Of a stretch of 24,000 nt of DNA, positions 3,190 to 21,097 are shown piece by piece. The position numbers and the translations under genes were made by a program. Each line of letters begins with the position of its first letter. Positions within the stretch are counted from its first letter, which is position 1. Origin of the DNA: Conexivisphaerales archaeon (GTDB lineage Archaea; Thermoproteota; Nitrososphaeria; Conexivisphaerales; DTJL01). The stretch is taken from contig DATKKG010000075.1 in the NCBI GenBank assembly GCA_035543015.1, positions 1 through 24,000 of the forward strand, in the 5' to 3' direction. Under the pieces are notes generated by a model that saw only the letters and a program-made list of their open reading frames with translations, searched no databases and was not told the DNA's origin.

Positions 3190-4479
3190 ATGCAACTGAC
3201 GAAGGAACAACCGACTCTTCGAATGAGCACTCTTTCGGGCCTCTACAAGGTCGACATGGAAACGAGGATGAAACGCGTGAAGGAGTTCGCCAACCTCGCC
3301 GACGAAGAAGCGGCCTCCATCTACTCCATGGACTCCCTCAAGAGGGACGTGGCCGACAGGATGATAGAGAACGTCATCGGTGCCATCCAGCTCCCTCTGG
3401 GCGTGGCCACCAACTTCCTCATCAACGGGAAGGAGTACGCCGTCCCCATGGCCATAGAGGAGCCCAGCGTCGTGGCCGCCGCGTCCAACGCCGCCAAGAT
3501 GACCAGGGCGAAGGGGGGCTTCCACGCCGTCTCCACCAGGCCCCTCATGGTGGCCCAGATACAGTCGGTGGGCGTCCCCGACCCCTACGCCGCAGTGCAG
3601 AAGGTCATCGCCCACACAAAGGAGATCCTAGAGATAAGCAACGAGACCAACCCCACCCTCGTCAAGCTGGGAGGAGGCGCCGTTGATCTGGACGCCAGGG
3701 TCCTCGACACCAGCAGGGGGAAGATGGTGATAACGGAGATCACCGTCGACTGCAGGGACGCCATGGGGGCCAACACCGTCAACACCATGGCCGAGACCGT
3801 GGCCCCCCTCATCGACTCCCTCATCGGGGGGAGGGTGCGGCTCAGGATCCTCTCCAACCTCGCGACGAAGAGGCTGGTGCGCTCATGGGCGACCTTCGAC
3901 AAGGAGTCCTTGGGCGGCTCCGACGTCGTTGAGGGGATACTTGACGCCTATGCCTTCGCCGAGGCGGACCCCTACCGCGCCACCACCCACAACAAGGGAA
4001 TCATGAACGGCATATCGTCGGTGGCTCTCGCGACGGGCAACGACACCCGGGCCATAGAGTCCGGCGCCCACGCATACGCCGCCAGGAGCGGCCGCTACAC
4101 ATCCCTCACCAGGTACGAGAAGGACGCCGAGGGGAACATCGTGGGCTCCATAGAGCTCCCCATAGCCTCGGGCATCCTGGGAGGGGCCACCTCCACCCAC
4201 CCCGTCGCCAAGGCCTCCATCAAGATCCTGGGGGTGAAGTCCGCCCAGGAGCTGGCCTGCGTGATGGCTTCCGTGGGACTCGCCCAGAACCTGGCAGCCC
4301 TGAGGGCCTTGGCAACGGAGGGAATCAGCAAGGGTCACATGAAGCTGCATGCGAGGAACCTCGCCGTCATGGCCGGGGCGCCGCCCGAGCTGATATCCAG
4401 GGTGGTCGAGGAGATGGAGAAAGAGCCCCATGTCACCTACGACAAGGTCGTCGAGATAGTCAAGAGGCTGAAGGCCTAG
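3190..4479 (+). CDS. hmgA: Hydroxymethylglutaryl-CoA reductase, class II (mevalonate pathway)
   Basis: 429 aa. ENVIGAIQLPLGVATNFLINGKEYAVPMAIEEPSVVAAASNAAK, DAMGANTVNTM and HNKGIMNG match the class II (Pseudomonas mevalonii type) enzyme. The alternative ATG at 3223 (MSTLSGLY...) aligns better with class II N-termini. Confidence 0.93.
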   Translation: MQLTKEQPTLRMSTLSGLYKVDMETRMKRVKEFANLADEEAASIYSMDSLKRDVADRMIENVIGAIQLPLGVATNFLINGKEYAVPMAIEEPSVVAAASNAAKMTRAKGGFHAVSTRPLMVAQIQSVGVPDPYAAVQKVIAHTKEILEISNETNPTLVKLGGGAVDLDARVLDTSRGKMVITEITVDCRDAMGANTVNTMAETVAPLIDSLIGGRVRLRILSNLATKRLVRSWATFDKESLGGSDVVEGILDAYAFAEADPYRATTHNKGIMNGISSVALATGNDTRAIESGAHAYAARSGRYTSLTRYEKDAEGNIVGSIELPIASGILGGATSTHPVAKASIKILGVKSAQELACVMASVGLAQNLAALRALATEGISKGHMKLHARNLAVMAGAPPELISRVVEEMEKEPHVTYDKVVEIVKRLKA

Positions 4480-4505: not shown

Positions 4506-5564
4506 CTACCTGCCCTCTCCTGAGGCTAGGTCTTCGAGCACCTGGTAGCAGTGCATGGCGTCCTTGGACTCGAGCACGACTATGGCCGTAAGCGTCGCAG
4601 TGATGTATTCGACCAGGTTGATCCCATGTGCCGCCAGCTCCGCCGTTATGACCGCGGCCACCCCGGGGACCTTCATCGTGGCTTCCGACAACGAAATCAC
4701 GACCTCCGAGAGGTTGTCGATCACTCGCAGTATGCTCTTCTGCGGGATCAAGGAGGTTAGCTTCTCCTGATTCTTCGCGTCGAACACCACGCTCACCGTC
4801 TCCAGCGCGGACACCATGTGAAGGGTCTCGCCCCTCGCGTAGTCGACCTCGCCGTTGAACTTGGCAAGCCCGACGGAGACCTCCGGGGAATTGAGTATCA
4901 CGTAGTCGACTATCCTGTCTTTCAGCAGGAGCTTCTGGATGTACTTGCCCACGCCTTCAGGCATCGCCTTGTGCTCGGCGGCGTGGAACCTCTTCACGAC
5001 CTTCACCAAGGGCTCCTTCGTGCTCACCACGCGCTTCTGTCCCTTTGCCCAAGGAAGCACTACCCTGTAGACGTCGACCGGGAAGGCCACGTTCTTCATA
5101 TCGTGAGACTCTAGCTTGATCAGAGGGTAGCGAAGTTTGTTCCGGATCTGGTCGTAGACCTGCTGGGAGATGCACACTTCGCCGCCCGCGGCCATCGGCT
5201 CGATCCTGGAAGCGATGTTGACGGCGTCACCGAAGACGTCGCCGGCCTTATGGACCACGTCTCCCACATGGATGCCTATCCTGACTTTCACCTTCGTCCT
5301 GGCTCTCTGGTTGTAGTCATGGAGGACCTTCTGGATCTCGATTCCGCACCGGGTCGCTTCCAGCGCGCTCCTGAACTCGACCAGGAAAGCGTCACCCATC
5401 GTCTTGACCTCGGTACCTCCATGCCTGCGGAGCACCGGTCGAATCAGCTCCCTGTGCTTCTCAAGGAGCTTAAGGGCCAGTCGTTCGTTCTTCTGCGTTA
5501 ACGCAGAGTAGCCTACGATGTCCGTGAACATGATTGCCGCTAGCCTTCTTTCGGAGCCGGTCAA
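4506..5564 (-). CDS. Class III adenylate (nucleotidyl) cyclase catalytic domain fused to a C-terminal ACT-like domain
   Basis: The N-terminal 170 aa carry the CHD signatures MFTDIVGYS, VKTMGDAFLVEF, RIGIHVGDV and GDAVNIASRIE (both metal Asp, the Lys, and the Asn/Arg pair). The C-terminus, PGVAAVITAELAAHGINLVEYITATLTAIVVLESKDAMHCYQVLEDL, looks like an ACT fold. The only start keeping strand beta-1 is TTG at 5564; the first ATG is residue 12. Confidence 0.85.
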   Translation of the reverse strand: MTGSERRLAAIMFTDIVGYSALTQKNERLALKLLEKHRELIRPVLRRHGGTEVKTMGDAFLVEFRSALEATRCGIEIQKVLHDYNQRARTKVKVRIGIHVGDVVHKAGDVFGDAVNIASRIEPMAAGGEVCISQQVYDQIRNKLRYPLIKLESHDMKNVAFPVDVYRVVLPWAKGQKRVVSTKEPLVKVVKRFHAAEHKAMPEGVGKYIQKLLLKDRIVDYVILNSPEVSVGLAKFNGEVDYARGETLHMVSALETVSVVFDAKNQEKLTSLIPQKSILRVIDNLSEVVISLSEATMKVPGVAAVITAELAAHGINLVEYITATLTAIVVLESKDAMHCYQVLEDLASGEGR

Positions 5565-12870: not shown

Positions 12871-13008
12871 GTCTCGTGTACCTTTCAAGGGTATTTCTGG
12901 ATATCTGTTGCGGCTGGAGAATGCAACCTGTGCCCATGTCTCGCGACTTGCTGTGGCACCAGTCGGAGTTATATGTGGCAGGCAATTCAGAGGAGGCGGA
13001 TACCATAA

Positions 13009-13527
13009 TTGGTGGAGGCAATCAGCTACGAGGTCCTGAAGAAGCTTGGCCAGGTGGAGATAAGGAAGTATCCCCTGATTGTGGCGGCTAGGGTGGACGG
13101 CTACGGCGACGGCGGCTTCAACTTGCTGTTCAACTTCATCTCGGGGAGGAACAGCAAGGCGGAGAAGGTGGCGATGACGGCACCCGTGGTCTCAGAGAAG
13201 ATCGCGATGACGGCACCCGTGCTCTCGGAAGGAGGCTCCATTTCGTTCGTCATGCCAGAAGGCTACACAAAGGAGACCACGCCCCGACCCTTGGATGCGA
13301 GGGTCAAGATCGTCGATTATCCGCCCAGGTACCTGGCGACCCTCAGATTCTCCGGGAGGTGGACCAACAGGGCCTTCGAGTCCAGGTCCAGGGAGATGAT
13401 GAACGAACTTCAAAAGGCTGGCATTGAGCCCAAAGGAGTGCCATTCTCCATGAGGTACAACGCGCCCTTCACACCCTGGTTCATGCGCAGAAACGAAGTG
13501 GCCGTGGAAGTCAGTTATCCTGTGTGA
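13009..13527 (+). CDS. SOUL haem-binding family protein
   Basis: 172 aa. YEVLKKLGQVEIRKYP, the duplicated VAMTAPVVSEK/IAMTAPVLSE motif, and RYNAPFTPWFMRRNEV. Only TTG (13009) or GTG (13012) starts are available. Confidence 0.88.
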   Translation: MVEAISYEVLKKLGQVEIRKYPLIVAARVDGYGDGGFNLLFNFISGRNSKAEKVAMTAPVVSEKIAMTAPVLSEGGSISFVMPEGYTKETTPRPLDARVKIVDYPPRYLATLRFSGRWTNRAFESRSREMMNELQKAGIEPKGVPFSMRYNAPFTPWFMRRNEVAVEVSYPV

Positions 13528-13783
13528 AGACCGGCTGCACCGACAGCCAGGATATCTTCCTAATGCATGGGATGAGGGACTCACAACGAAGCATGATCAG
13601 GACCGCCGAGTCGTTGGCCAAGCTTCGGGTATCCGGTCTCCTACAGAACAAGATACAGACGCAACTTACAACGGCCTTGATTGTCAGGACATAGGGTTGC
13701 GGCTATCATTCCTCAAAAACTGACATCCTATGAGGAGGCCGTGACCCTCGCATTCAAGGGGAACCGTACAGTAGTCCGAACAA

Positions 13784-14470
13784 CTAAGCGCCCCTCTTGA
13801 GCCCGTTCACAAATCCCAAGCCATCTTTGAGGCTGAGGCTGCAGTAGTCCGCCAACCTCTCTCCAGACGCCTTCCCGGTAACCGCTTCTTTGACTCGCTT
13901 CGATTTGAGGAGGCGGCTCCCCACGATTATCACGGAGTCCCTGAAGAGGGTGTCGGCCCTCAACGCCCGAAGGGTCTTGATCAGACTCTCCTCGTTGTAC
14001 CCCATGGTCATGGTCAGGCAGACTATGTCAAAGCGCCGGCCCAGTCCCCTCAGGTACTCAAAGACTCGATTCAAAGAGGCGCCCCTCTCAATGAATTCAA
14101 CGTCCCACCCTTCGCTAGAGAGCAAAGCTGAAAACATCTTCAGCCCTACGTAATGGAACTCTCCTTCAACGCAGTTCAGAAGCACGGCAGACCCCTTTCT
14201 GACCCCCGCCTGCGCTCTGAGTCGCCGAGCGGCCTTCTCGATCATTTCCATGGTCGTCGCCGTCGCAAAGTGCTCGTCGGCGACGCTGATTTCCTTCTCA
14301 GCCCAGAGCTCCCCTATCCTGACCTGGGCCTCTCCGAGGGTCTCCATTATCGGGAGAAGCCTCTCTCCCTTGTCCAGCATGGACTCGACCACAGATCCCG
14401 CCCTTTTCCTGTCCCTATCCAGGACGGCTTTCAAATAGTCGTCCTTGTAGCTGACCGGTTCTCCTTTCAA
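13784..14470 (-). CDS. Stand-alone cobalamin (B12)-binding protein of CarH/AerR photoreceptor type, with no DNA-binding domain
   Basis: The N-terminal helical bundle has IGELWAEKEISVADEHFAT, an exact W-x9-EH. The Rossmann-type B12 domain has VEGEFHYVGLKM (E-x-H-x-x-G lower-ligand His), IVCLTMTM and IIVGS. 228 aa with a TTG start needed to keep helix 1. Confidence 0.85.
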   Translation of the reverse strand: MKGEPVSYKDDYLKAVLDRDRKRAGSVVESMLDKGERLLPIMETLGEAQVRIGELWAEKEISVADEHFATATTMEMIEKAARRLRAQAGVRKGSAVLLNCVEGEFHYVGLKMFSALLSSEGWDVEFIERGASLNRVFEYLRGLGRRFDIVCLTMTMGYNEESLIKTLRALRADTLFRDSVIIVGSRLLKSKRVKEAVTGKASGERLADYCSLSLKDGLGFVNGLKRGA

Positions 14471-14570
14471 CGTGACCCTTCTACGCGGAGAGGTGAATTA
14501 AGCGTTTTCAGATGGGCGGTCTGCGGATTCCCTCTCGCCCATAATCGTTAATAGCAGAAAGGGTCCCCGC

Positions 14571-15404
14571 ATGCCCGTCTTGAACGACGAAGAGCTCACC
14601 AAGACCCTGATGCGCTTCGGAATCACCCGCCAGGAGGCCGAGGTCTTCCTCCTCCTCTCCAAGGTCAAGAAGGGGGGAATCGAATGGATCGGAGGGAGGG
14701 AGGCGGCCTCCGTAGCGCACAAGAGCAGGGTGAGGACCTACCAGGTCCTCGAAAGGCTCGCGGAGCTGGGACTGGTCAGCACCGACTTCAGCAGGCCCAA
14801 GAAGTACTCGGCTGAGGCTCCCCAGGTCGCCGTCAGAAGGCTCATGGGCATCCACGAGGCCCGACTCACGGAGCTGAGCCACCTGGAAGGAGACGTCGTA
14901 GATGGGCTCTTCAAACTGGAGCCGCCTGACCTGGGTTCGCTCAAGGAAGAAGAAGAGGAGGGGAGGACCAACGTCGTCCTCCTTAGGGGGCTCCCCAACA
15001 TTCAGAACACGTTGAGAAAGGTCATGGAATGCGAGGAGCTGGCCATGACCATCAACGAGGAGTCCGCCGCGCATCTAATGAGCACCCTGGCATACCTGAC
15101 GGAGAAGCCGGGACGCCTGATCCTTCTGCTTTCGAAAGAGGTCTCGCGGAGACAGCTCTCCCGGGCCGGCCTGAGCCCCGGCGCTGAGGTGGCCCACTTC
15201 AGGGGAGAGCTCCCAACCATCGTGATGACCGAAAGGCATACCCTCTTCCTGCACTACTCTACCAAGGAATACAGACCACGGCCGCTGTCGCCGCCGACGC
15301 GCAAGTCCAAGGTCACCGACTGCATCCTCGTCGAGGGAGCCTCCTACGTGCACCGGATGAGGGAGGTCTTCGACGCCCTTTGGGATGCCTCCGTGCAGGA
15401 TTGA
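14571..15404 (+). CDS. TrmB family transcriptional regulator
   Basis: N-terminal winged HTH: LMRFGITRQEAEVFLLLSKV...ASVAHKSRVRTYQVLERLAELGLVSTDFSRPKKYSAEAPQVAV, then a coiled linker and a C-terminal effector-like domain. TATA-like gttaatag lies about 22 nt upstream. Confidence 0.85.
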   Translation: MPVLNDEELTKTLMRFGITRQEAEVFLLLSKVKKGGIEWIGGREAASVAHKSRVRTYQVLERLAELGLVSTDFSRPKKYSAEAPQVAVRRLMGIHEARLTELSHLEGDVVDGLFKLEPPDLGSLKEEEEEGRTNVVLLRGLPNIQNTLRKVMECEELAMTINEESAAHLMSTLAYLTEKPGRLILLLSKEVSRRQLSRAGLSPGAEVAHFRGELPTIVMTERHTLFLHYSTKEYRPRPLSPPTRKSKVTDCILVEGASYVHRMREVFDALWDASVQD

Positions 15405-15495
15405 AGTAGTTTCACATGTTGTAAGATATCATCCTAACTAACATCAGTCTTATAGCGTCTCCGAAGTTGGCTTCATTCAGTAAAAGGTGCCAGGA

Positions 15496-17196
15496 ATGAC
15501 ATCCCAGCAGCTGGAAACCGTGACGCAGGAGTCCACACGCATCGACGCAGCAAAGCTAGTCACCCTTCTTGTGCTCAGCCTCGCGCTGGCCATAGTGATA
15601 ATCGACGGGACCATAGTCAACATCGCCCTTCCCTCCATTCAGACCCAGTTCGCCGTTTCGGTCAACGATCTGGAGTGGATAAGCGCCATTTACGCCCTCG
15701 TCTTCGGCGGCTTCCTCCTCACTTGGGGACGCCTGGGCGACGAGTTCGGACGCCGCCGCATTTTCATGGCCGGGATCCTGACGTTCATCTCCGGCTCGAT
15801 GATAACGGGCTTCGCAAACGGCCTTCCTATGATTCTTCTCGGTAGGCTAGTCCAGGGCTTCGGCGCCGCGATGGCTTCACCTTCCACTCTCTCCATACTG
15901 ACGACCACCTTCTACGGCCGCTCCAGAGGGATAGCGTTCGGGATTTGGGGAGCCGTGGCTGGAGCAGCCGGCGCCCTCGGACCTCTGATCGGAGGCTACC
16001 TTACCACATATGCCACCTGGAGATGGGCCTTCCTGATCAACGTGCCAATTGGAATAGTTGCTCTGGCGGGCTCCTACTTCTTCATCAAGGAGTCGATGTC
16101 CAGGTCCGGGCGCTACGACCCCGACTACCGGGGGACGGCTCTAGTGTCATCCGCCCTGGCCCTTCTCATATTCGGACTCATCGAAGGACAGACCTACGGC
16201 TGGCTGGCTGCGAACCAGGTCTTCAAGATTGGCAGCTTCACCTGGCCCTTCACCTCTGTGGCCATAACGCCGGTCGCCATGGCCCTCGGGCTTGTCTTGG
16301 CAGCTGCCTTCGTGCTGAACGAGAGGTCCCGCCTAAGGGCCGACAGAGAGGTCCTCCTCGACCTCAGGCTCCTGGGCTACCGCGGCTTCCGTTTCGGCCT
16401 TCTGACCGTGGGCGTCGTAGCCATGGGTGAGTTCGGCATCTTCTTCATCCTCTCGCTGTATTTCCAGTTGGTAAGGGGGATGAGCGCCCTCTCCACAGGC
16501 TATGCCCTTCTTCCGTTTGCGGGCACCGCTTTCTTCGCAGCACCCCTCGCAGGCCTTCTGTCCTCGCGCATAGGTGCGAAGTGGATAGTCACCACAGGCA
16601 TGGCCCTGGAAGCCACATCTCTGATCTTGCTTTCGCAGCTCACCGGCGTCAATACCTCTCTGACGACGATTTATGCCATTCTGGCGCTCTACGGGGTCGG
16701 AGTTGGGCTGGCGATAGGCCAGCTCACTGGCCTCGTCGTCGGCAGCATACCTCCTCAGAACGCGGGAACGGCTTCGGGCGCCAACAGCACCATTAGACAG
16801 TTGGGCGCGGCCTTCGGCGTGGCCATCATCGGGGCCGTGCTGGTGGCCCAGGTCTCCTCGGTGGGCCAGGCTCAGCTCCAGGCAAGCACAGTGATACCCT
16901 CCTACCTGAAAACGGCGCTAGCTCCCGTACTAAGCCAAGGACTCATCGGAGGCTCTGCCCCATCGCTGCCGCCATCGATCATCAACTCTCCAATAGGCCT
17001 GGCCATTCAGGGGATTTTCAACTCAGCGATAACCGAAGGCGTGCGATACGCCGCCTTGGTTGCCGGGTTCTTCGTCTCCCTAGGGGCGATAAGTTCCCTG
17101 CTACTGCCCAACAACAGGGTCAAGGGAATCAAAGGAGCCAAGAGCTCCCGCAATCAATATACTGAGAGAACCTACAAGGGAGTCGAGGGTAATTGA
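15496..17196 (+). CDS. MFS transporter, DHA2 (EmrB/QacA, 14-TMS) drug:H+ antiporter family
   Basis: LALAIVIIDGTIVNIALPSIQTQF, WGRLGDEFGRRRIFMAG, LLGRLVQGFGAAM and WRWAFLINVPIG, with about 14 hydrophobic segments. The ATG at 15496 has AGGTG 6 nt upstream; the longest ORF starts with GTG at 15487. Confidence 0.92.
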   Translation: MTSQQLETVTQESTRIDAAKLVTLLVLSLALAIVIIDGTIVNIALPSIQTQFAVSVNDLEWISAIYALVFGGFLLTWGRLGDEFGRRRIFMAGILTFISGSMITGFANGLPMILLGRLVQGFGAAMASPSTLSILTTTFYGRSRGIAFGIWGAVAGAAGALGPLIGGYLTTYATWRWAFLINVPIGIVALAGSYFFIKESMSRSGRYDPDYRGTALVSSALALLIFGLIEGQTYGWLAANQVFKIGSFTWPFTSVAITPVAMALGLVLAAAFVLNERSRLRADREVLLDLRLLGYRGFRFGLLTVGVVAMGEFGIFFILSLYFQLVRGMSALSTGYALLPFAGTAFFAAPLAGLLSSRIGAKWIVTTGMALEATSLILLSQLTGVNTSLTTIYAILALYGVGVGLAIGQLTGLVVGSIPPQNAGTASGANSTIRQLGAAFGVAIIGAVLVAQVSSVGQAQLQASTVIPSYLKTALAPVLSQGLIGGSAPSLPPSIINSPIGLAIQGIFNSAITEGVRYAALVAGFFVSLGAISSLLLPNNRVKGIKGAKSSRNQYTERTYKGVEGN

Positions 17197-18017
17197 ACTC
17201 AGCTGAAAGACGTAAGCTGATTTCCAAGTCTCCGATTTCCTTCAGGTACCTCAAGCGCTTCAACACGGCCGCCGGGGCTCTGCATCTCGTCCAAGGGCTG
17301 ATCATGCTGGCCCTAGGCCTCTCTCTGACCTGGAGCCGGGACATCTACACCTACTACCTCAAGTTCTCCGTCATCAGCCTGTCGCCGCCCGTCTTCAAGA
17401 TCGCCCCCAACCCCCAAGTCCTGTTCACCATCAACAACTTGGGCGCCATACTCGCTTCGTTCCTGCTCATATCGGCCGCCGCACACCTCATAATCGCCTT
17501 CGTCAGGAACAAGCAGTACAACGAGAACCTTTCCAAGGGCATGAACCCCTACCGCTGGTACGAATACTCACTGTCCAGCTCAATAATGATCGTCCTGATC
17601 TGCCTATTCCTGGGCATCTGGGACCTCTGGTCGCTGGTTATGATCTTCACGCTCAACGCCATGATGATCATGTTCGGCTACCTCATGGAGAAGATGAACC
17701 AGACCACGGAGAAGACGGACTGGTCGGCCTTCCTCCTGGGCTGCGTCTCCGGAGGTGTTCCGTGGGTGGTGCTGCTGGCCAACTTCGTGGGCCTCATCGG
17801 GTCTACGAACCTCAGGCCCCCGGCGTTCGTCTACATGATAGTGGTCATCTACTTCGTTCTCTTCAACAGCTTCGCCGTCAACATGGTGCTTCAGTACAAA
17901 GGAGTCGGGAAGTGGAAGGACTACCTCTACGGTGAACGCGTCTACATCCTCCTCAGCCTCATCGCAAAGAGCCTGCTGGCGTGGATCGTTTTCGTAGGGA
18001 TCTTCGCGCCGTTCTAG
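17193..18017 (+). CDS. Heliorhodopsin
   Basis: 274 aa. FNTAAGALHLVQ, AAAHLII, YRWYEYSLSSSIMIVLI, LGCVSGGVPW and FNSFAVNMVLQYKGVGKWKDYLYGERVYILLSLIAKSLLAW parallel remembered heliorhodopsin 48C12 motifs. The Schiff-base Lys (SLIAKS), counterion Glu (WYEYS) and both His are retained. The TTG start at 17193-17195 follows an in-frame TAA directly and overlaps the MFS TGA stop (17194-17196). Confidence 0.93.
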   Translation: MNSAERRKLISKSPISFRYLKRFNTAAGALHLVQGLIMLALGLSLTWSRDIYTYYLKFSVISLSPPVFKIAPNPQVLFTINNLGAILASFLLISAAAHLIIAFVRNKQYNENLSKGMNPYRWYEYSLSSSIMIVLICLFLGIWDLWSLVMIFTLNAMMIMFGYLMEKMNQTTEKTDWSAFLLGCVSGGVPWVVLLANFVGLIGSTNLRPPAFVYMIVVIYFVLFNSFAVNMVLQYKGVGKWKDYLYGERVYILLSLIAKSLLAWIVFVGIFAPF

Positions 18018-18036: not shown

Positions 18037-18073
18037 GCCTCCGGTTTTCTTTTTGAGAAGCTCAGCCGGAGGC
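18037..18073 (+). terminator. Hairpin plus oligo-T tract after the heliorhodopsin gene
   Basis: gcctccgg (18037-18044) pairs with ccggaggc (18066-18073). The T-rich run ttttcttttt (18045-18054) lies 20-35 nt after the stop, like an archaeal oligo-T terminator. Confidence 0.45.
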
Positions 18074-18221
18074 ACTCCAGAACTTGGAAGGCTTCTCCGG
18101 GACCTCTGCTGACCATGCTTCGCCCAGCCAACAAATGTGACTTGAACCTTGTAAGTTATGATTCTAAATATCTTCCGACTTAAGTAGGATGCGAGAAAGG
18201 TCATTCTTAGGGAAAAACACG

Positions 18222-18632
18222 ATGGCAAACATCGTTCAAACCGCAATACAGGCTGGCTCCTTCAAGACGCTCGTAGCGGCTGTGCAGGCTGCCGGTCTGG
18301 TCGACACTCTGAGCAGCAAAGGCCCGTTCACGGTCTTCGCACCCAACGACGACGCCTTTGCTAAGCTGCCGAAGGGCACGGTTGAGAGCCTCCTTAACGA
18401 CAAGGCCAAGCTCACTTCCGTACTCACCTACCACGTCGTAGCCGGCAAGGTCATGTCAAGCGACGTAAGGACAGGCCCGGTCAAGACAGTCCAGGGACAG
18501 AACGCCCAGATGAAGGTGTCCGGCATCTTCTCCAAGACCGTCATGATCGACAACGCCAAGGTCATCAAGCCCGACATAGTGACCGACAACGGCCTAATTC
18601 ACGTAATCGACTCGGTCATCCTGCCAGAGTAA
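18222..18632 (+). CDS. Fasciclin (FAS1) domain protein, single domain, no signal peptide
   Basis: [50 protein letters not shown]...[10 protein letters not shown]...[13 protein letters not shown] is a canonical FAS1 domain. The family N-terminus fits the ATG at 18222; the longest ORF starts at 18189. Confidence 0.88.
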
Positions 18633-18653: not shown

Positions 18654-18791
18654 AGCTCCAGCGGGCCCTCTTTCCTAGAGGTTTCTTGTTTCTACAACAC
18701 CGGTATTCTAGAATGTTCTATGCAGCGTCTCCATGAACTCAATCGGAAGAGCAATACAATAAAGGGGTCTCAGACACTCATATGCCGCACA

Positions 18792-19652
18792 ATGGAAGCC
18801 ACCATGACGTTGGAGGGCAGGGTCTGCATGGTCACTGGCGCCACCTCTGGCATAGGCAGAGCCACTGCCGAGGCCCTGTCGCGGATGGGAGCTGCCCTAG
18901 TCTTGGTTGGTCGCAGTCGGGAGAAGAGCGAGGAGACGATCATGTTCATCAAGGAATCGACCGGCAACTCGAAAGTCGAGTACCTTCTGGCTGACCTGTC
19001 TTCGCAGAAGGAGATCCGAAGCCTGGTGGAGAAGTTCAAGTCAAACCACAGTTCGCTTCACGTCCTGGTCAACAACGCCGGAGCCACCTTCTCGAAACGC
19101 CGTGAGACCGTCGACGGCTTCGAGATGACCTGGGCCACCAATTACCTCAGCTGCTTCCTCCTGACGAACCTCCTCTTGGACCTGCTCAAGTCCAGCGCAC
19201 CTTCTCGCATCGTCAACGTGTCTTCCGGCCTGCACAGGCGTGCGCGGCTCGACTTCAACGACCTACAGCTGAAGGCAGGCTACTCCAGGGATCGCGCCTA
19301 CGATCTTTCCAAGCTCGCCATGGTTCTCTTCACCTACGAGCTGGCCCGCCGCCTTGAAGGGAGCCGTGTGACGGCGAACGCGCTGGGCCCGGGCCTCGTG
19401 AGGACGAACCTTGGAAAGAACGAAGACCTTGCGACCAAGCTGGCCAAGAGCTTCGCCGACCTCTTCGCCGCCAGTGCTGAAGAGGGGGCAAGGACCAGCG
19501 TCTACCTAGCTTCATCCCCGGAGGTGGAGGGGGTCACGGGGATGTACTTCCTGAAGGGCAGAGAGGCGCGATCCTCCGACTTGTCATACAATTCCGAGTT
19601 CGCCAAACGACTGTGGGAGATCAGCGAAGCGCAGACAGGGCTGAAGCGGTAG
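18792..19652 (+). CDS. SDR oxidoreductase of the retinol-dehydrogenase-like (RDH11-14 / WWOX-like) subfamily
   Basis: VTGATSGIGRATA, NNAGA, DGFEMTWATNYLSCFLLTNLLLDLLKSSAPSRIVNVSSGLH and AYDLSKLAMVLFTYELARRL (YxxxK) closely follow the remembered RDH12-type pattern (DGFE...NHLGHFLLT.LLL..LK.SAPSRIVNVSS..H; AY..SKLAN.LFT.ELARRL). TATA-like caataaag lies about 28 nt upstream of the ATG at 18792; the longest ORF starts at 18720. Confidence 0.9.
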   Translation: MEATMTLEGRVCMVTGATSGIGRATAEALSRMGAALVLVGRSREKSEETIMFIKESTGNSKVEYLLADLSSQKEIRSLVEKFKSNHSSLHVLVNNAGATFSKRRETVDGFEMTWATNYLSCFLLTNLLLDLLKSSAPSRIVNVSSGLHRRARLDFNDLQLKAGYSRDRAYDLSKLAMVLFTYELARRLEGSRVTANALGPGLVRTNLGKNEDLATKLAKSFADLFAASAEEGARTSVYLASSPEVEGVTGMYFLKGREARSSDLSYNSEFAKRLWEISEAQTGLKR

Positions 19653-19936: not shown

Positions 19937-21097
19937 GTGTCAAACAGCTATCTCTTTACATCCGAGTCCGTGGCAGAGGGCCATCCGGACAAGGTAGCCG
20001 ACCAGATCTCCGACGCCATCCTTGACGCCATCCTAGCCCAGGACCCAAAGGCCAGGGTGGACTGCGAGACTCTGGTAATGGAGAGCATGGTGATCGTAAC
20101 GGGCCAAATCACCACCAAGGCGACGGTGAACTACAAGAAGGTCATCAGGGGCGTCCTGAGGGACCTCGGTTTGAACAACGCCCGGGACGGCCTCGACTGG
20201 GAGACCTGTGGGATCCTTGTCTCGATCGAAGAGCAGTCGCCCGACATCGCCATGGGCGTCAACAAGGCTCCCGAGGAGATGGGCGCCGGCGACCAGGGGA
20301 TCATGTTCGGGTACGCCTGCAACGAAACGCCGGAGCTCATGCCCCTTCCCATAATGCTCGCCCACAAGATCGTCAAACGGCTGGCGGAGGTTCGAAAGAA
20401 CGGCGAACTGCCCTACCTCAGGCCCGACGGGAAGTCCCAGGTCACAGTCGAGTACACGGAAGGCAAGCCCGTAAGAGTGGAGGCGGTGGTCGTGGCGGCC
20501 CAGCATGAAGAGCACGTCGACAGGGAGAAGATGAGGAAGGACATCATCGAGAAGGTGATCAAGGAGGTCGTCCCCGCGAACCTCATCGACGCCAAGACGA
20601 AGTATCTTATCAACGAGACCGGCAGGTTCGTCGTCGGCGGAACGCTGGCCGACTCAGGGATAACCGGCAGGAAGATCATAGTCGACACGTACGGCGGGAC
20701 CGGCTCACATGGCGGCGGCTGCTTCGGCGGGAAGGACCCCTCGAAGGTCGACCGTTCGGCGAGCTATATGGCCCGCTACATCGCCAAGAACATCGTCGCC
20801 GCGGGCCTGGCCGACAGAGTTCAGGTGCAGATAGCCTACGCCATCGGAGTGGCGGAGCCCATCTCGGTCTTCGTGACGACCTACGGCACAGGCAAGGTAC
20901 CCGACGCCAAGATCACTGAGCTTGTCAAGAAGAACTTCGACCTGCGCCCCGGCATGATCATCAAACGGCTGGACCTCCTCAGGCCCATCTACAGGAAGAC
21001 GGCCTGCTACGGGCACTTCGGGAGGACCGAGCCGGAGTTCACGTGGGAGAAGACGGACGTCGCCGGCGACCTGAGACGGCAGGCTGGGCTGAAGTAG
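19937..21097 (+). CDS. metK: S-adenosylmethionine synthetase, bacterial/eukaryotic MetK type
   Basis: 386 aa. [57 protein letters not shown] and [19 protein letters not shown], collinear with E. coli MetK. GTG start. Confidence 0.95.

What the first reader, a model, noticed from the sequence alone, without database searches (positions are those of the whole stretch)
15496..18017. Heliorhodopsin translationally coupled to a DHA2 MFS transporter (TTGA stop/start overlap)
- **Overlap:** The MFS gene ends ...GGT AAT TGA (17194-17196). The heliorhodopsin frame opens right after its own in-frame TAA (17190-17192) with TTG at 17193-17195, so stop and start overlap.
- **Why TTG is the start:** A purine-rich GAGGG lies 4-8 nt upstream. 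The next in-frame ATG would delete TM1.
- **Intact photoreceptor:** All residues I remember as essential in heliorhodopsins are kept: the Schiff-base Lys in SLIAKS, the counterion Glu in RWYEYS, and both His.
- **Why it matters:** Heliorhodopsins do not pump ions and their physiological outputs are largely unknown. The reported partners I recall are soluble enzymes (glutamine synthetase, photolyase). A fixed-stoichiometry operon with a 14-TMS drug:H+ antiporter suggests a light-gated or light-regulated transporter complex, which to my knowledge is undescribed.
Basis: partly seen in the sequence, partly recalled or inferred. Interest (0 to 1): 0.86.

Follow-up and report, generated by a model that had tools for sequence, protein, structure and literature searches.

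The report
Heliorhodopsin gene overlapping an efflux-pump gene
An intact light-sensor gene (heliorhodopsin) overlaps the end of a drug-efflux transporter gene by four bases in an uncultured archaeon, but this pairing occurs only in a few very close relatives, so it is a weak lead, not evidence, for a light-controlled transporter.

Summary
A DHA2-type MFS gene (15496-17196) ends in a TGA that sits inside the TTGA of a complete heliorhodopsin gene (17193-18017). The TTG start, the Schiff-base Lys259, the counterion Glu124 and His31/His98 are all confirmed.

- **Narrow distribution.** About 148 non-redundant loci of the same archaeal heliorhodopsin clade have enough upstream sequence to judge. 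Only three very close relatives (window, L088, L089) carry MFS-HeR with the overlap.
- **Loss in a fourth relative.** In L082 the MFS is truncated and frameshifted, while the heliorhodopsin stays intact.
- **No enrichment.** MFS genes are not enriched next to this clade's heliorhodopsins (3 of 146 immediate neighbours). The recurrent neighbours are SOUL, Pyridox_ox_2 and fasciclin genes.
- **By-product overlap.** The TTG-AAC start is ancestral and also occurs in unlinked relatives, so the TTGA overlap follows from where the MFS frame happens to stop.
- **Prior literature.** A heliorhodopsin that binds and light-activates a multidrug ABC exporter was published in 2024. MFS neighbours were noted as non-specific in 2021.
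- **Host.** It looks like Conexivisphaerales (Nitrososphaeria), not Thermoplasmatota.

Most likely this is a young, lineage-restricted operon of a regulator-controlled pump plus heliorhodopsin. Direct light regulation of the pump remains possible but is untested.

The parts
14571..15404 (+). TrmB-family HTH regulator gene, immediately upstream of the MFS and conserved with it (89% aa identity in L088; C-terminus seen in L089)
   Evidence: Pfam TrmB E=1.3e-6; synteny
15418..15457 (+). Conserved non-coding block upstream of the MFS. It includes the TATA-like CTTATAG at 15449-15455. It is the probable promoter and operator of the MFS-HeR unit.
   Evidence: The block is nearly identical in window, L088 and L089, although dS between these loci is 0.65-1.4. 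Its function is inferred.
15496..17196 (+). DHA2 (EmrB/QacA-type) MFS transporter gene, 566 aa, 14 hydrophobic segments, stop TGA at 17194-17196
   Evidence: MFS_1 E=1e-49; TIGR00711 239.5 bits > 230.2; best PDB matches QacA, EfpA, EmrB; hydropathy; omega about 0.08
17156..17162 (+). AT-rich AATATAC inside the MFS 3' end, 31-37 nt before the HeR start. It is a possible internal TATA box for a separate HeR transcript.
   Evidence: L088, L089 and L082 have TTATAA, TTATAT and TTATTT at the same position, and only 1-2 such hexamers occur per 2.5 kb in each. Across 153 loci the region upstream of HeR shows an AT-rich peak at -36..-25. This is suggestive only.
17185..17189 (+). GAGGG Shine-Dalgarno-like site 4-8 nt before the TTG
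   Evidence: Present in the window; not conserved in L088, L089 or L082
17193..17196 (+). TTGA stop/start overlap (HeR start TTG 17193-17195; MFS stop TGA 17194-17196)
   Evidence: The junction ATTGAA is identical in L088, L089 and L082. The TTGAAC start is also found in the unlinked relatives L083, L095 and L081.
17193..18017 (+). Heliorhodopsin gene, 274 aa: H31 (17283-85), H98 (17484-86), counterion E124 (17562-64), Schiff-base K259 (17967-69)
   Evidence: PF18761 E=2e-95; NF038020 E=3e-105; TaHeR 6IS6 E=1e-62 over residues 13-273; residues verified
18045..18054 (+). Oligo-T tract TTTTCTTTTT 28 nt after the HeR stop. It is the probable archaeal transcription terminator that closes the unit.
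   Evidence: Sequence. L089 has CTTTCTTTTG at a similar distance. The terminator function is inferred from general knowledge of archaeal oligo-T termination.

Best explanation
This is a young operon restricted to one lineage of an uncultured Nitrososphaeria (Conexivisphaerales-like) archaeon. Its layout is a TrmB-type regulator gene, then a conserved promoter block, then a DHA2 MFS efflux pump gene, then a heliorhodopsin gene, then an oligo-T terminator.

The heliorhodopsin belongs to a widespread and highly conserved archaeal clade. In nearly all other genomes it is a stand-alone gene with its own AT-rich promoter region, and its recurrent neighbours are SOUL, Pyridox_ox_2 and fasciclin genes.

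In this lineage a regulator-plus-pump cassette came to lie directly upstream. The MFS reading frame simply runs until the first in-frame stop, and that stop is the TGA embedded in the heliorhodopsin's ancestral TTG-AAC start. The TTGA overlap is therefore a by-product of the juxtaposition, not an adaptation.

The two genes are most likely co-transcribed from the MFS promoter, and the heliorhodopsin may be translated by termination-reinitiation. Both steps are inferred. Pump and photoreceptor would then be co-expressed as part of a light and oxidative-stress gene neighbourhood. Nothing in the comparative data indicates an obligate or co-adapted complex: the heliorhodopsin works without the pump in all other lineages and in one close relative that lost it.
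For: **The genes.** Gene identities and the overlap are confirmed.

**Shallow conservation.** The same architecture and junction occur in L088 and L089, and both genes have omega about 0.08.

**One transcription unit.** A conserved block lies upstream of the MFS, and a T-tract follows the HeR.

**No wider conservation.**
- Among 80 species-representative genomes, the window MFS finds homologues within 7 kb in only 2, both on the opposite strand.
- Among 80 metagenome loci, only the L082 duplicate carries it.
- None of 148 loci outside the clade has an overlapping co-directional upstream ORF.
- Immediate neighbours are SOUL in 14 of 72, Pyridox_ox_2 in 13 of 146 and MFS_1 in 3 of 146. With a background of about 1% of genes, P is about 0.17 (using counts).

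**The start is ancestral.** The TTGAAC start is shared by unlinked relatives.

**Natural loss.** In L082 the MFS lacks residues 1-162. It is fused to the first 14 codons of an alcohol dehydrogenase gene homologous to window 8981 and carries a 2-bp deletion. Its HeR is intact, with omega about 0.07-0.10.

**No co-adaptation signal.** No notable HeR substitutions are specific to the MFS-linked clade.

**The MFS family on its own.** The nearest other MFS homologues sit beside ordinary neighbours, one of them an HxlR regulator, and have no HeR.
Against: - The pair has stayed together, overlap included, over dS of about 1, with strong purifying selection on both genes. That is what a functional operon would look like.
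- A heliorhodopsin is experimentally known to bind and up-regulate a multidrug exporter of another superfamily (PMC11109279), so a direct link is plausible.
- The charged ICL3 residues implicated there have counterparts here (K236, K240, K242, D243), though they are conserved in the whole clade.
- The L082 contig is a single short metagenome assembly, so a chimera cannot be excluded.
- No expression data were available.
Confidence: 0.55

Rival explanations
1. Direct light regulation of the pump. The heliorhodopsin binds the DHA2 MFS antiporter in the membrane and changes its activity on illumination, as OcHeR does with the ABC exporter OmrDE. The overlap ensures joint synthesis.
For: - Precedent for HeR acting on a multidrug exporter (PMC11109279).
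- Overlap and synteny are kept in three diverged genomes, with omega about 0.08 for both genes.
- A single promoter block and terminator flank the pair.
- The HeR is fully intact.
Against: - The association is limited to one shallow clade out of about 148 loci.
- There is no MFS enrichment.
- The published survey found MFS neighbours no more frequent than next to proton pumps: odds ratio 0.78, P=0.11 in Actinobacteria group A.
- The MFS was lost and the HeR retained in L082.
- No clade-specific HeR surface changes were found.
- The SD-like site is not conserved.
Confidence: 0.2
2. Incidental adjacency with separate transcription. The heliorhodopsin keeps its own promoter (a TATA box about 35 nt upstream, now inside the MFS 3' end) and is expressed independently. 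The overlap has no regulatory meaning and the two proteins are functionally unrelated.
For: - TATA-like hexamers are very rare in these GC-rich genes, yet one sits at -36 in L088, L089 and L082, and a weaker AATATAC sits there in the window. The encoded amino acids at that spot vary: YK, YM, YL, YT.
- Stand-alone relatives have TATA-like elements at -45..-33, and the clade shows an AT peak at -36..-25.
- In L082 the HeR persists after deletion of the MFS promoter region.
Against: - The window's own element is weak.
- Homology between the MFS 3' end and the upstream regions of unlinked HeR genes is not significant (p mostly > 0.05).
- The Tyr codon TAT is conserved at the protein level, which explains part of the motif.
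- The MFS promoter block is far better conserved than this element.
Confidence: 0.25

Closest known systems
OcHeR-OmrDE of Ornithinimicrobium cerasi (heliorhodopsin that binds and light-up-regulates a heterodimeric multidrug ABC exporter; Cho et al. 2024, PMC11109279)
   Same: A heliorhodopsin is encoded in the same predicted operon as a multidrug-type exporter. The cytoplasmic-loop charged residues are conserved.
   Different: - The partner here is a single-chain proton-coupled MFS (DHA2) without nucleotide-binding domains.
- The host is an archaeon, not an actinobacterium.
- MFS is not among that paper's ten recurrent neighbour groups.
- No binding or activity data exist for this pair.
   Same: A heliorhodopsin acts as a regulatory partner of a protein encoded next to it.
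   Different: Those partners are soluble enzymes, and the glutamine synthetase association recurs in many Actinobacteria. Gln-synt_C is significantly enriched next to HeR in the published table. The MFS association here is confined to one shallow clade.
TaHeR, Thermoplasmatales archaeon SG8-52-1 heliorhodopsin (PDB 6IS6, 7U55; mutant 7CLJ)
   Same: It is the best solved-structure match (E=1e-62 over residues 13-273). The Schiff-base Lys, counterion Glu and both His align.
   Different: The relationship is clearly more distant than to the Bathyarchaeia, Methanobacteriaceae and Asgard clade members (65-73% identity). No identity value was computed for TaHeR. The extracellular loop is longer here.
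DHA2 family MFS exporters (QacA 7Y58, EfpA, EmrB; TIGR00711)
   Same: The protein scores above the family cut-off, has 14 hydrophobic segments, and aligns over residues 20-455.
   Different: Its substrate is unknown. It has a long loop (about residues 455-520) before the last helix. No EmrA-like partner gene is nearby.
Local regulator plus efflux pump gene pairs (for example the HxlR-MFS pair in L175)
   Same: A small HTH regulator gene lies immediately upstream of the pump, with a conserved intergenic block.
   Different: The regulator here is TrmB-type and co-directional. A photoreceptor gene is appended to the pump.

Membership tests
Heliorhodopsin (PF18761 / NF038020) | Significant match to the family profile over its full length | tested here: met
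   PF18761 E=2.4e-95, profile positions 1-241 of 242; NF038020 351 bits against a cut-off of 100
Heliorhodopsin (PF18761 / NF038020) | Retinal Schiff-base lysine in TM7 and glutamate counterion in TM3 | tested here: met
   K259 and E124. E124 aligns with the residue changed to Asp in 7CLJ. Both are invariant in alignment A1.
Heliorhodopsin (PF18761 / NF038020) | Conserved histidines in TM1 and TM2 | tested here: met
   H31 and H98 are invariant in 18 sequences and were verified in the DNA
Heliorhodopsin (PF18761 / NF038020) | Seven transmembrane helices with inverted topology (cytoplasmic N-terminus) | tested here: inconclusive
   A crude hydropathy scan finds 6 clear segments. The alignment covers all of the 7-TM TaHeR chain. 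Topology cannot be tested with these tools.
Heliorhodopsin (PF18761 / NF038020) | Binds retinal and shows a slow photocycle without ion pumping | not testable with these tools
   Needs expression and spectroscopy
DHA2 drug:H+ antiporter family of the MFS (TIGR00711) | Score above the curated family cut-off | tested here: met
   239.5 bits against 230.2
DHA2 drug:H+ antiporter family of the MFS (TIGR00711) | Fourteen transmembrane segments | tested here: met
   14 hydrophobic segments with mean hydropathy of at least 1.37, plus two weak amphipathic stretches in the 455-520 loop. This is hydropathy only.
DHA2 drug:H+ antiporter family of the MFS (TIGR00711) | Proton-coupled export of drugs or other substrates | not testable with these tools
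   Needs transport assays
Heliorhodopsin-partner regulatory operon (as in HeR-GS, HeR-ABC exporter) | HeR and the partner gene lie in one transcription unit | tested here: inconclusive
   Pointing to one unit: the 4-nt overlap, the conserved promoter block upstream of the MFS, and the T-tract after the HeR. Against: a possible internal TATA-like element. There are no RNA data.
Heliorhodopsin-partner regulatory operon (as in HeR-GS, HeR-ABC exporter) | The association recurs across HeR lineages beyond shared recent ancestry | tested here: not met
   Only the window, L088 and L089 carry it, plus the L082 remnant, among about 148 loci. MFS_1 is 3 of 146 immediate neighbours.
Heliorhodopsin-partner regulatory operon (as in HeR-GS, HeR-ABC exporter) | Physical binding and light-dependent change of partner activity | not testable with these tools
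   Needs co-purification or ITC, and light/dark assays
Translationally coupled overlapping gene pair | Stop of the upstream gene overlaps the start of the downstream gene | tested here: met
   TTGA at 17193-17196, conserved in L088, L089 and L082
Translationally coupled overlapping gene pair | Conserved ribosome-binding site upstream of the downstream start | tested here: not met
   GAGGG occurs only in the window. The relatives have GAAGC, GAAGA and GAGTC.

The most novel reading that the evidence does not exclude
The heliorhodopsin binds the DHA2 MFS antiporter encoded just upstream and gates or tunes its proton-coupled export in the light. This would be the first rhodopsin-regulated secondary transporter, and it would extend the heliorhodopsin-ABC exporter precedent to a second transporter superfamily and to archaea.

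A wider version is also possible. The whole locus could be a light-response island, in which a stand-alone CarH-type B12 photoreceptor domain (13784-14470) works with the TrmB regulator to switch the MFS-HeR operon.
Probability: 0.17. Interest if true: 0.7.

Novelty: new variant of a known kind. Interest (0 to 1): 0.33.

Why it matters
The physiological outputs of heliorhodopsins are known for only a few cases. A heliorhodopsin that controls a proton-coupled MFS pump would add a new partner class and a compact two-gene optogenetic module.

The present evidence shows that this pairing is a recent, narrow event in a clade whose heliorhodopsins otherwise stand alone. It is one testable candidate among many heterogeneous heliorhodopsin neighbourhoods, not a general clue to heliorhodopsin function.

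The more general signal in this clade is the repeated adjacency to SOUL, Pyridox_ox_2 and fasciclin genes.

Tried and rejected
- **Homology of the MFS 3' end to HeR upstream regions.** I tested whether the last 60 nt of the MFS gene are homologous to the non-coding region upstream of HeR in unlinked relatives, which would prove read-through over an old promoter. MAFFT lined up the TATA-like elements. Local-alignment scores against shuffles were not significant: p was 0.04-0.82 and mostly above 0.1. The claim is dropped.
- **HeR residues specific to the MFS-linked clade.** I looked for these as a sign of an interface. After excluding positions shared with unlinked near relatives, only four mild differences remain: R18, N81, M168 and L195.
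- **Relaxed selection on the L082 MFS remnant.** Omega rises only from about 0.10 to 0.13-0.15. That fits a recent event but proves nothing.
- **Look-up of the 100%-identical HeR (P0001).** It gave no contig.
- **Synteny through a long contig of a relative.** I used HMG-CoA reductase P0243 to reach locus L174, which did not reach a HeR.
- **First hydropathy pass.** It found 12 segments, not 14, at a strict threshold. A finer scan gave 14.
- **Programmed frameshift fusion of the two ORFs.** I considered and rejected this. The HeR N-terminus is conserved as a free start in all relatives.
Full report
**What is in the sequence.**
- The window holds two co-directional ORFs, at 15487/15496..17196 and 17193..18017.
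- The junction reads ...GGT AAT TGA in the first frame and TTG AAC TCA in the second, so the stop and start share TTGA at 17193-17196.
- The first product matches MFS_1 (E=1e-49). It passes the curated DHA2 model TIGR00711 (239.5 bits against 230.2). Its best solved relatives are QacA, EfpA and EmrB, and it has 14 strongly hydrophobic segments.
- The second product matches Pfam Heliorhodopsin (E=2e-95) and NCBIfam HeR. It aligns over residues 13-273 with the solved archaeal heliorhodopsin TaHeR (6IS6, E=1e-62).
- The Schiff-base lysine (K259), the counterion (E124, aligned with the residue mutated in 7CLJ), H31 and H98 are present.
- The TTG start is correct. Homologues are 274 aa long and share the N-terminus MNSxERR..SPISF. 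The next ATG is codon 38, inside TM1.

**Corrections to details.**
- The GAGGG 4-8 nt upstream exists only in the window. The three relatives with the same junction have GAAGC, GAAGA and GAGTC.
- On the one marker tested the host is not Thermoplasmatota. The HMG-CoA reductase at 3190-4479 is 87% identical to proteins labelled Conexivisphaerales, followed by other Nitrososphaeria.
- The heliorhodopsin itself belongs to a very conserved clade (65-73% identity) spread over Bathyarchaeia, Methanobacteriaceae, Asgard and other archaea.

**How far the pairing is conserved.**
- *Close relatives.* Two independent metagenome contigs share the arrangement and the identical ATTGAA junction.
  - L088 has a B12-binding gene, SOUL, TrmB, MFS and HeR. 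Its MFS is 92% and its HeR 87% identical to the window.
  - L089 has TrmB, MFS, HeR and fasciclin. Its MFS is 84% and its HeR 88% identical.
  - Both genes evolve under strong purifying selection (omega about 0.08) across dS 0.65-1.4.
- *Beyond them the pairing disappears.*
  - The HeR at 81% identity follows a fasciclin gene (L083 and L084).
  - The HeR at 77% follows kdpABC (L081).
  - The HeR at 76% has SOUL or Pyridox_ox_2 neighbours.
  - In 80 species-representative genomes carrying this HeR clade, the window MFS finds homologues within 7 kb in only two, both on the opposite strand.
  - In 80 metagenome loci, the only hit is a duplicate of L082.
- *Junction geometry.* Of 148 non-redundant loci, seven have a co-directional ORF of at least 100 aa ending within 60 nt of the HeR start. 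Only the three of the MFS clade (L088, L089, L082) overlap it.
- *Immediate neighbours by Pfam.*
  - SOUL is upstream in 14 of 72 loci.
  - Pyridox_ox_2 appears in 13 of 146 immediate neighbours.
  - MFS_1 appears in 3 of 146. One of these is an unrelated 12-helix MFS 80 nt upstream in L016.
  - With MFS_1 at about 1% of genes (counts in the published Dataset S3), three or more hits are expected by chance with P about 0.17.
- *The MFS side.* Its next homologues (58-59% identity) have no HeR nearby. One sits beside an HxlR regulator, which is the usual regulator-pump arrangement.

**A natural loss.**
- Contig L082 (identical to L094) carries an intact HeR, 86% identical to the window and 91% to L088 and L089.
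- The MFS upstream of it lacks residues 1-162. It is joined to the first 14 codons of an alcohol dehydrogenase gene homologous to window 8981, and it has a 2-bp deletion that shifts the frame.
- The remnant has no premature stops apart from the frameshift, and its omega is only slightly raised, so the event is recent.
- If the contig is not chimeric, the HeR is kept under selection after loss of the pump and of the pump's promoter.

**Origin of the overlap.**
- The TTG-AAC start is shared by the whole subclade, including L083, L095 and L081, which have no MFS. In the wider clade 33 of 148 loci use TTG.
- The TGA inside TTGAAC is simply the first stop that the MFS frame meets.
- The MFS C-terminal tail before it is poorly conserved.
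- The overlap is thus most simply a by-product of the juxtaposition.

**Transcription (all inferred).**
- A 40-nt block with a TATA-like CTTATAG (15418-15457) is nearly identical in window, L088 and L089 despite dS of about 1.
- A T-tract follows the HeR in the window and in L089.
- Both features favour a single MFS-HeR transcript.
- Against this, a TATA-like hexamer lies 36 nt before the HeR start in L088, L089 and L082, with a weaker AATATAC in the window. Such hexamers occur only once or twice per 2.5 kb in these genes, and the encoded residues vary at that spot.
- Stand-alone HeR genes also show an AT-rich peak at -36..-25.
- A formal test of homology between the MFS 3' end and those upstream regions failed, so an internal promoter is possible but unproven.

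**Comparison with what is known.**
- Heliorhodopsins have been shown to bind and regulate proteins encoded beside them. One is glutamine synthetase (PMC9529153). Another, directly relevant here, is the multidrug ABC exporter OmrDE, whose transport is up-regulated by light through OcHeR (PMC11109279).
- That study's ten recurrent neighbour groups include ABC transporters and SDR oxidoreductases but not MFS.
- An earlier neighbourhood survey listed ABC and MFS transporters among common HeR neighbours. It found them equally common next to proton-pumping rhodopsins (10.1101/2021.02.16.431466). For Actinobacteria group A, 93 of 876 HeR loci have MFS_1 within ten genes, at a median distance of five genes, with odds ratio 0.78 and P=0.11.
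- The idea of a light-regulated transporter is therefore not new. What would be new is an MFS partner.
- The charged cytoplasmic-loop residues implicated in OcHeR binding have counterparts here, but they are conserved throughout the clade regardless of neighbours.
- No HeR substitutions distinguish the MFS-linked clade in a meaningful way.

**Verdict.**
- The most likely account (about 0.55) is a young, lineage-restricted operon that couples expression of a regulator-controlled efflux pump and a general-purpose heliorhodopsin, with no obligate complex.
- Independent transcription with purely incidental adjacency is about 0.25.
- Direct light regulation of the pump is about 0.2.
- This is a reasonable experimental candidate, because both genes are intact, small and adjacent. 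The comparative evidence does not single it out, so interest is modest.

Noticed in passing
window 13784-14470 (-): A 228-aa stand-alone B12-binding protein (PF02607 + PF02310) carries the Wx9EH motif (residue 56) and ExHxxG (residue 104). From memory these are the signature of CarH-type light-sensing cobalamin domains. It has a weak match to CarH (E=1.5e-7) and no DNA-binding domain. It lies divergent to the TrmB regulator of the MFS-HeR unit and is also present in L088 (87% identity). It may be a second photoreceptor in the locus.
   Followed up: partly
window 13009-13527 (+); L001-L080 upstream neighbours: A SOUL haem-binding protein gene is the commonest immediate upstream neighbour of this archaeal HeR clade (14 of 72 loci). 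One lies 3.7 kb upstream of the HeR in the window, and one in L088. Pyridox_ox_2 genes are the next most common (13 of 146 immediate neighbours). Catalase, tocopherol cyclase, MsrA and UvdE also appear. This pattern is much stronger than any MFS link.
   Followed up: partly
window 18189-18632 (+); L089, L083/L084, L109, L150, L156, L063: A small fasciclin-domain protein gene sits next to the HeR in several diverged loci, on either side and on either strand. Identity to the window protein is 60-88%. No paper holding both 'heliorhodopsin' and 'fasciclin' appeared in a literature search listing 15 of 21 hits.
   Followed up: partly
window 18720-19652 (+); L063 7906-8790: An SDR oxidoreductase lies two genes downstream of the HeR. 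A 46%-identical SDR lies directly (78 nt) downstream of the HeR in L063. 'SDR family oxidoreductase' is one of the ten recurrent HeR operon partners in PMC11109279.
   Followed up: no
L081 3589-8816 (GCA_050011055.1): In the relative with 77% HeR identity, the HeR follows kdpA-kdpB-kdpC (a K+-transporting P-type ATPase) on the same strand with a 154-nt gap. This is a different transporter upstream of the same HeR subclade. P-type ATPases are also the upstream neighbour in 2 of 72 other loci.
   Followed up: no
L082 (= L094) 600-1955: This locus has an apparent 6.9-kb deletion relative to the window. The first 14 codons of the zinc alcohol dehydrogenase (window 8981) are joined to MFS codon ~163, and there is a 2-bp deletion further on. 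The HeR downstream is intact.
   Followed up: yes
window 15418-15457: A 40-nt non-coding block (GTTGTAAGATATCATCCTAACTAACATCAGTCTTATAGCG) between TrmB and the MFS is almost identical in window, L088 and L089, although synonymous sites are near saturation. It is probably the promoter plus regulator binding site.
   Followed up: partly
window 19937-21097 (+): The S-adenosylmethionine synthetase is of the bacterial/eukaryotic three-domain MetK type (PF00438, PF02772, PF02773) and has a GTG start, in what otherwise looks like an archaeal genome.
   Followed up: no
window 4506-5564 (-); L081 83-1531 (-): An adenylate/guanylate cyclase catalytic-domain protein is encoded in the window, and another within 8 kb of the HeR in L081. 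This may be coincidence.
   Followed up: no
L088 1-1050 versus window 12959-14516: The order of the SOUL and B12-binding genes is swapped between L088 (B12-binding, then SOUL, then TrmB) and the window (SOUL, then B12-binding, then TrmB). This shows local rearrangement just upstream of the conserved TrmB-MFS-HeR block.
   Followed up: no
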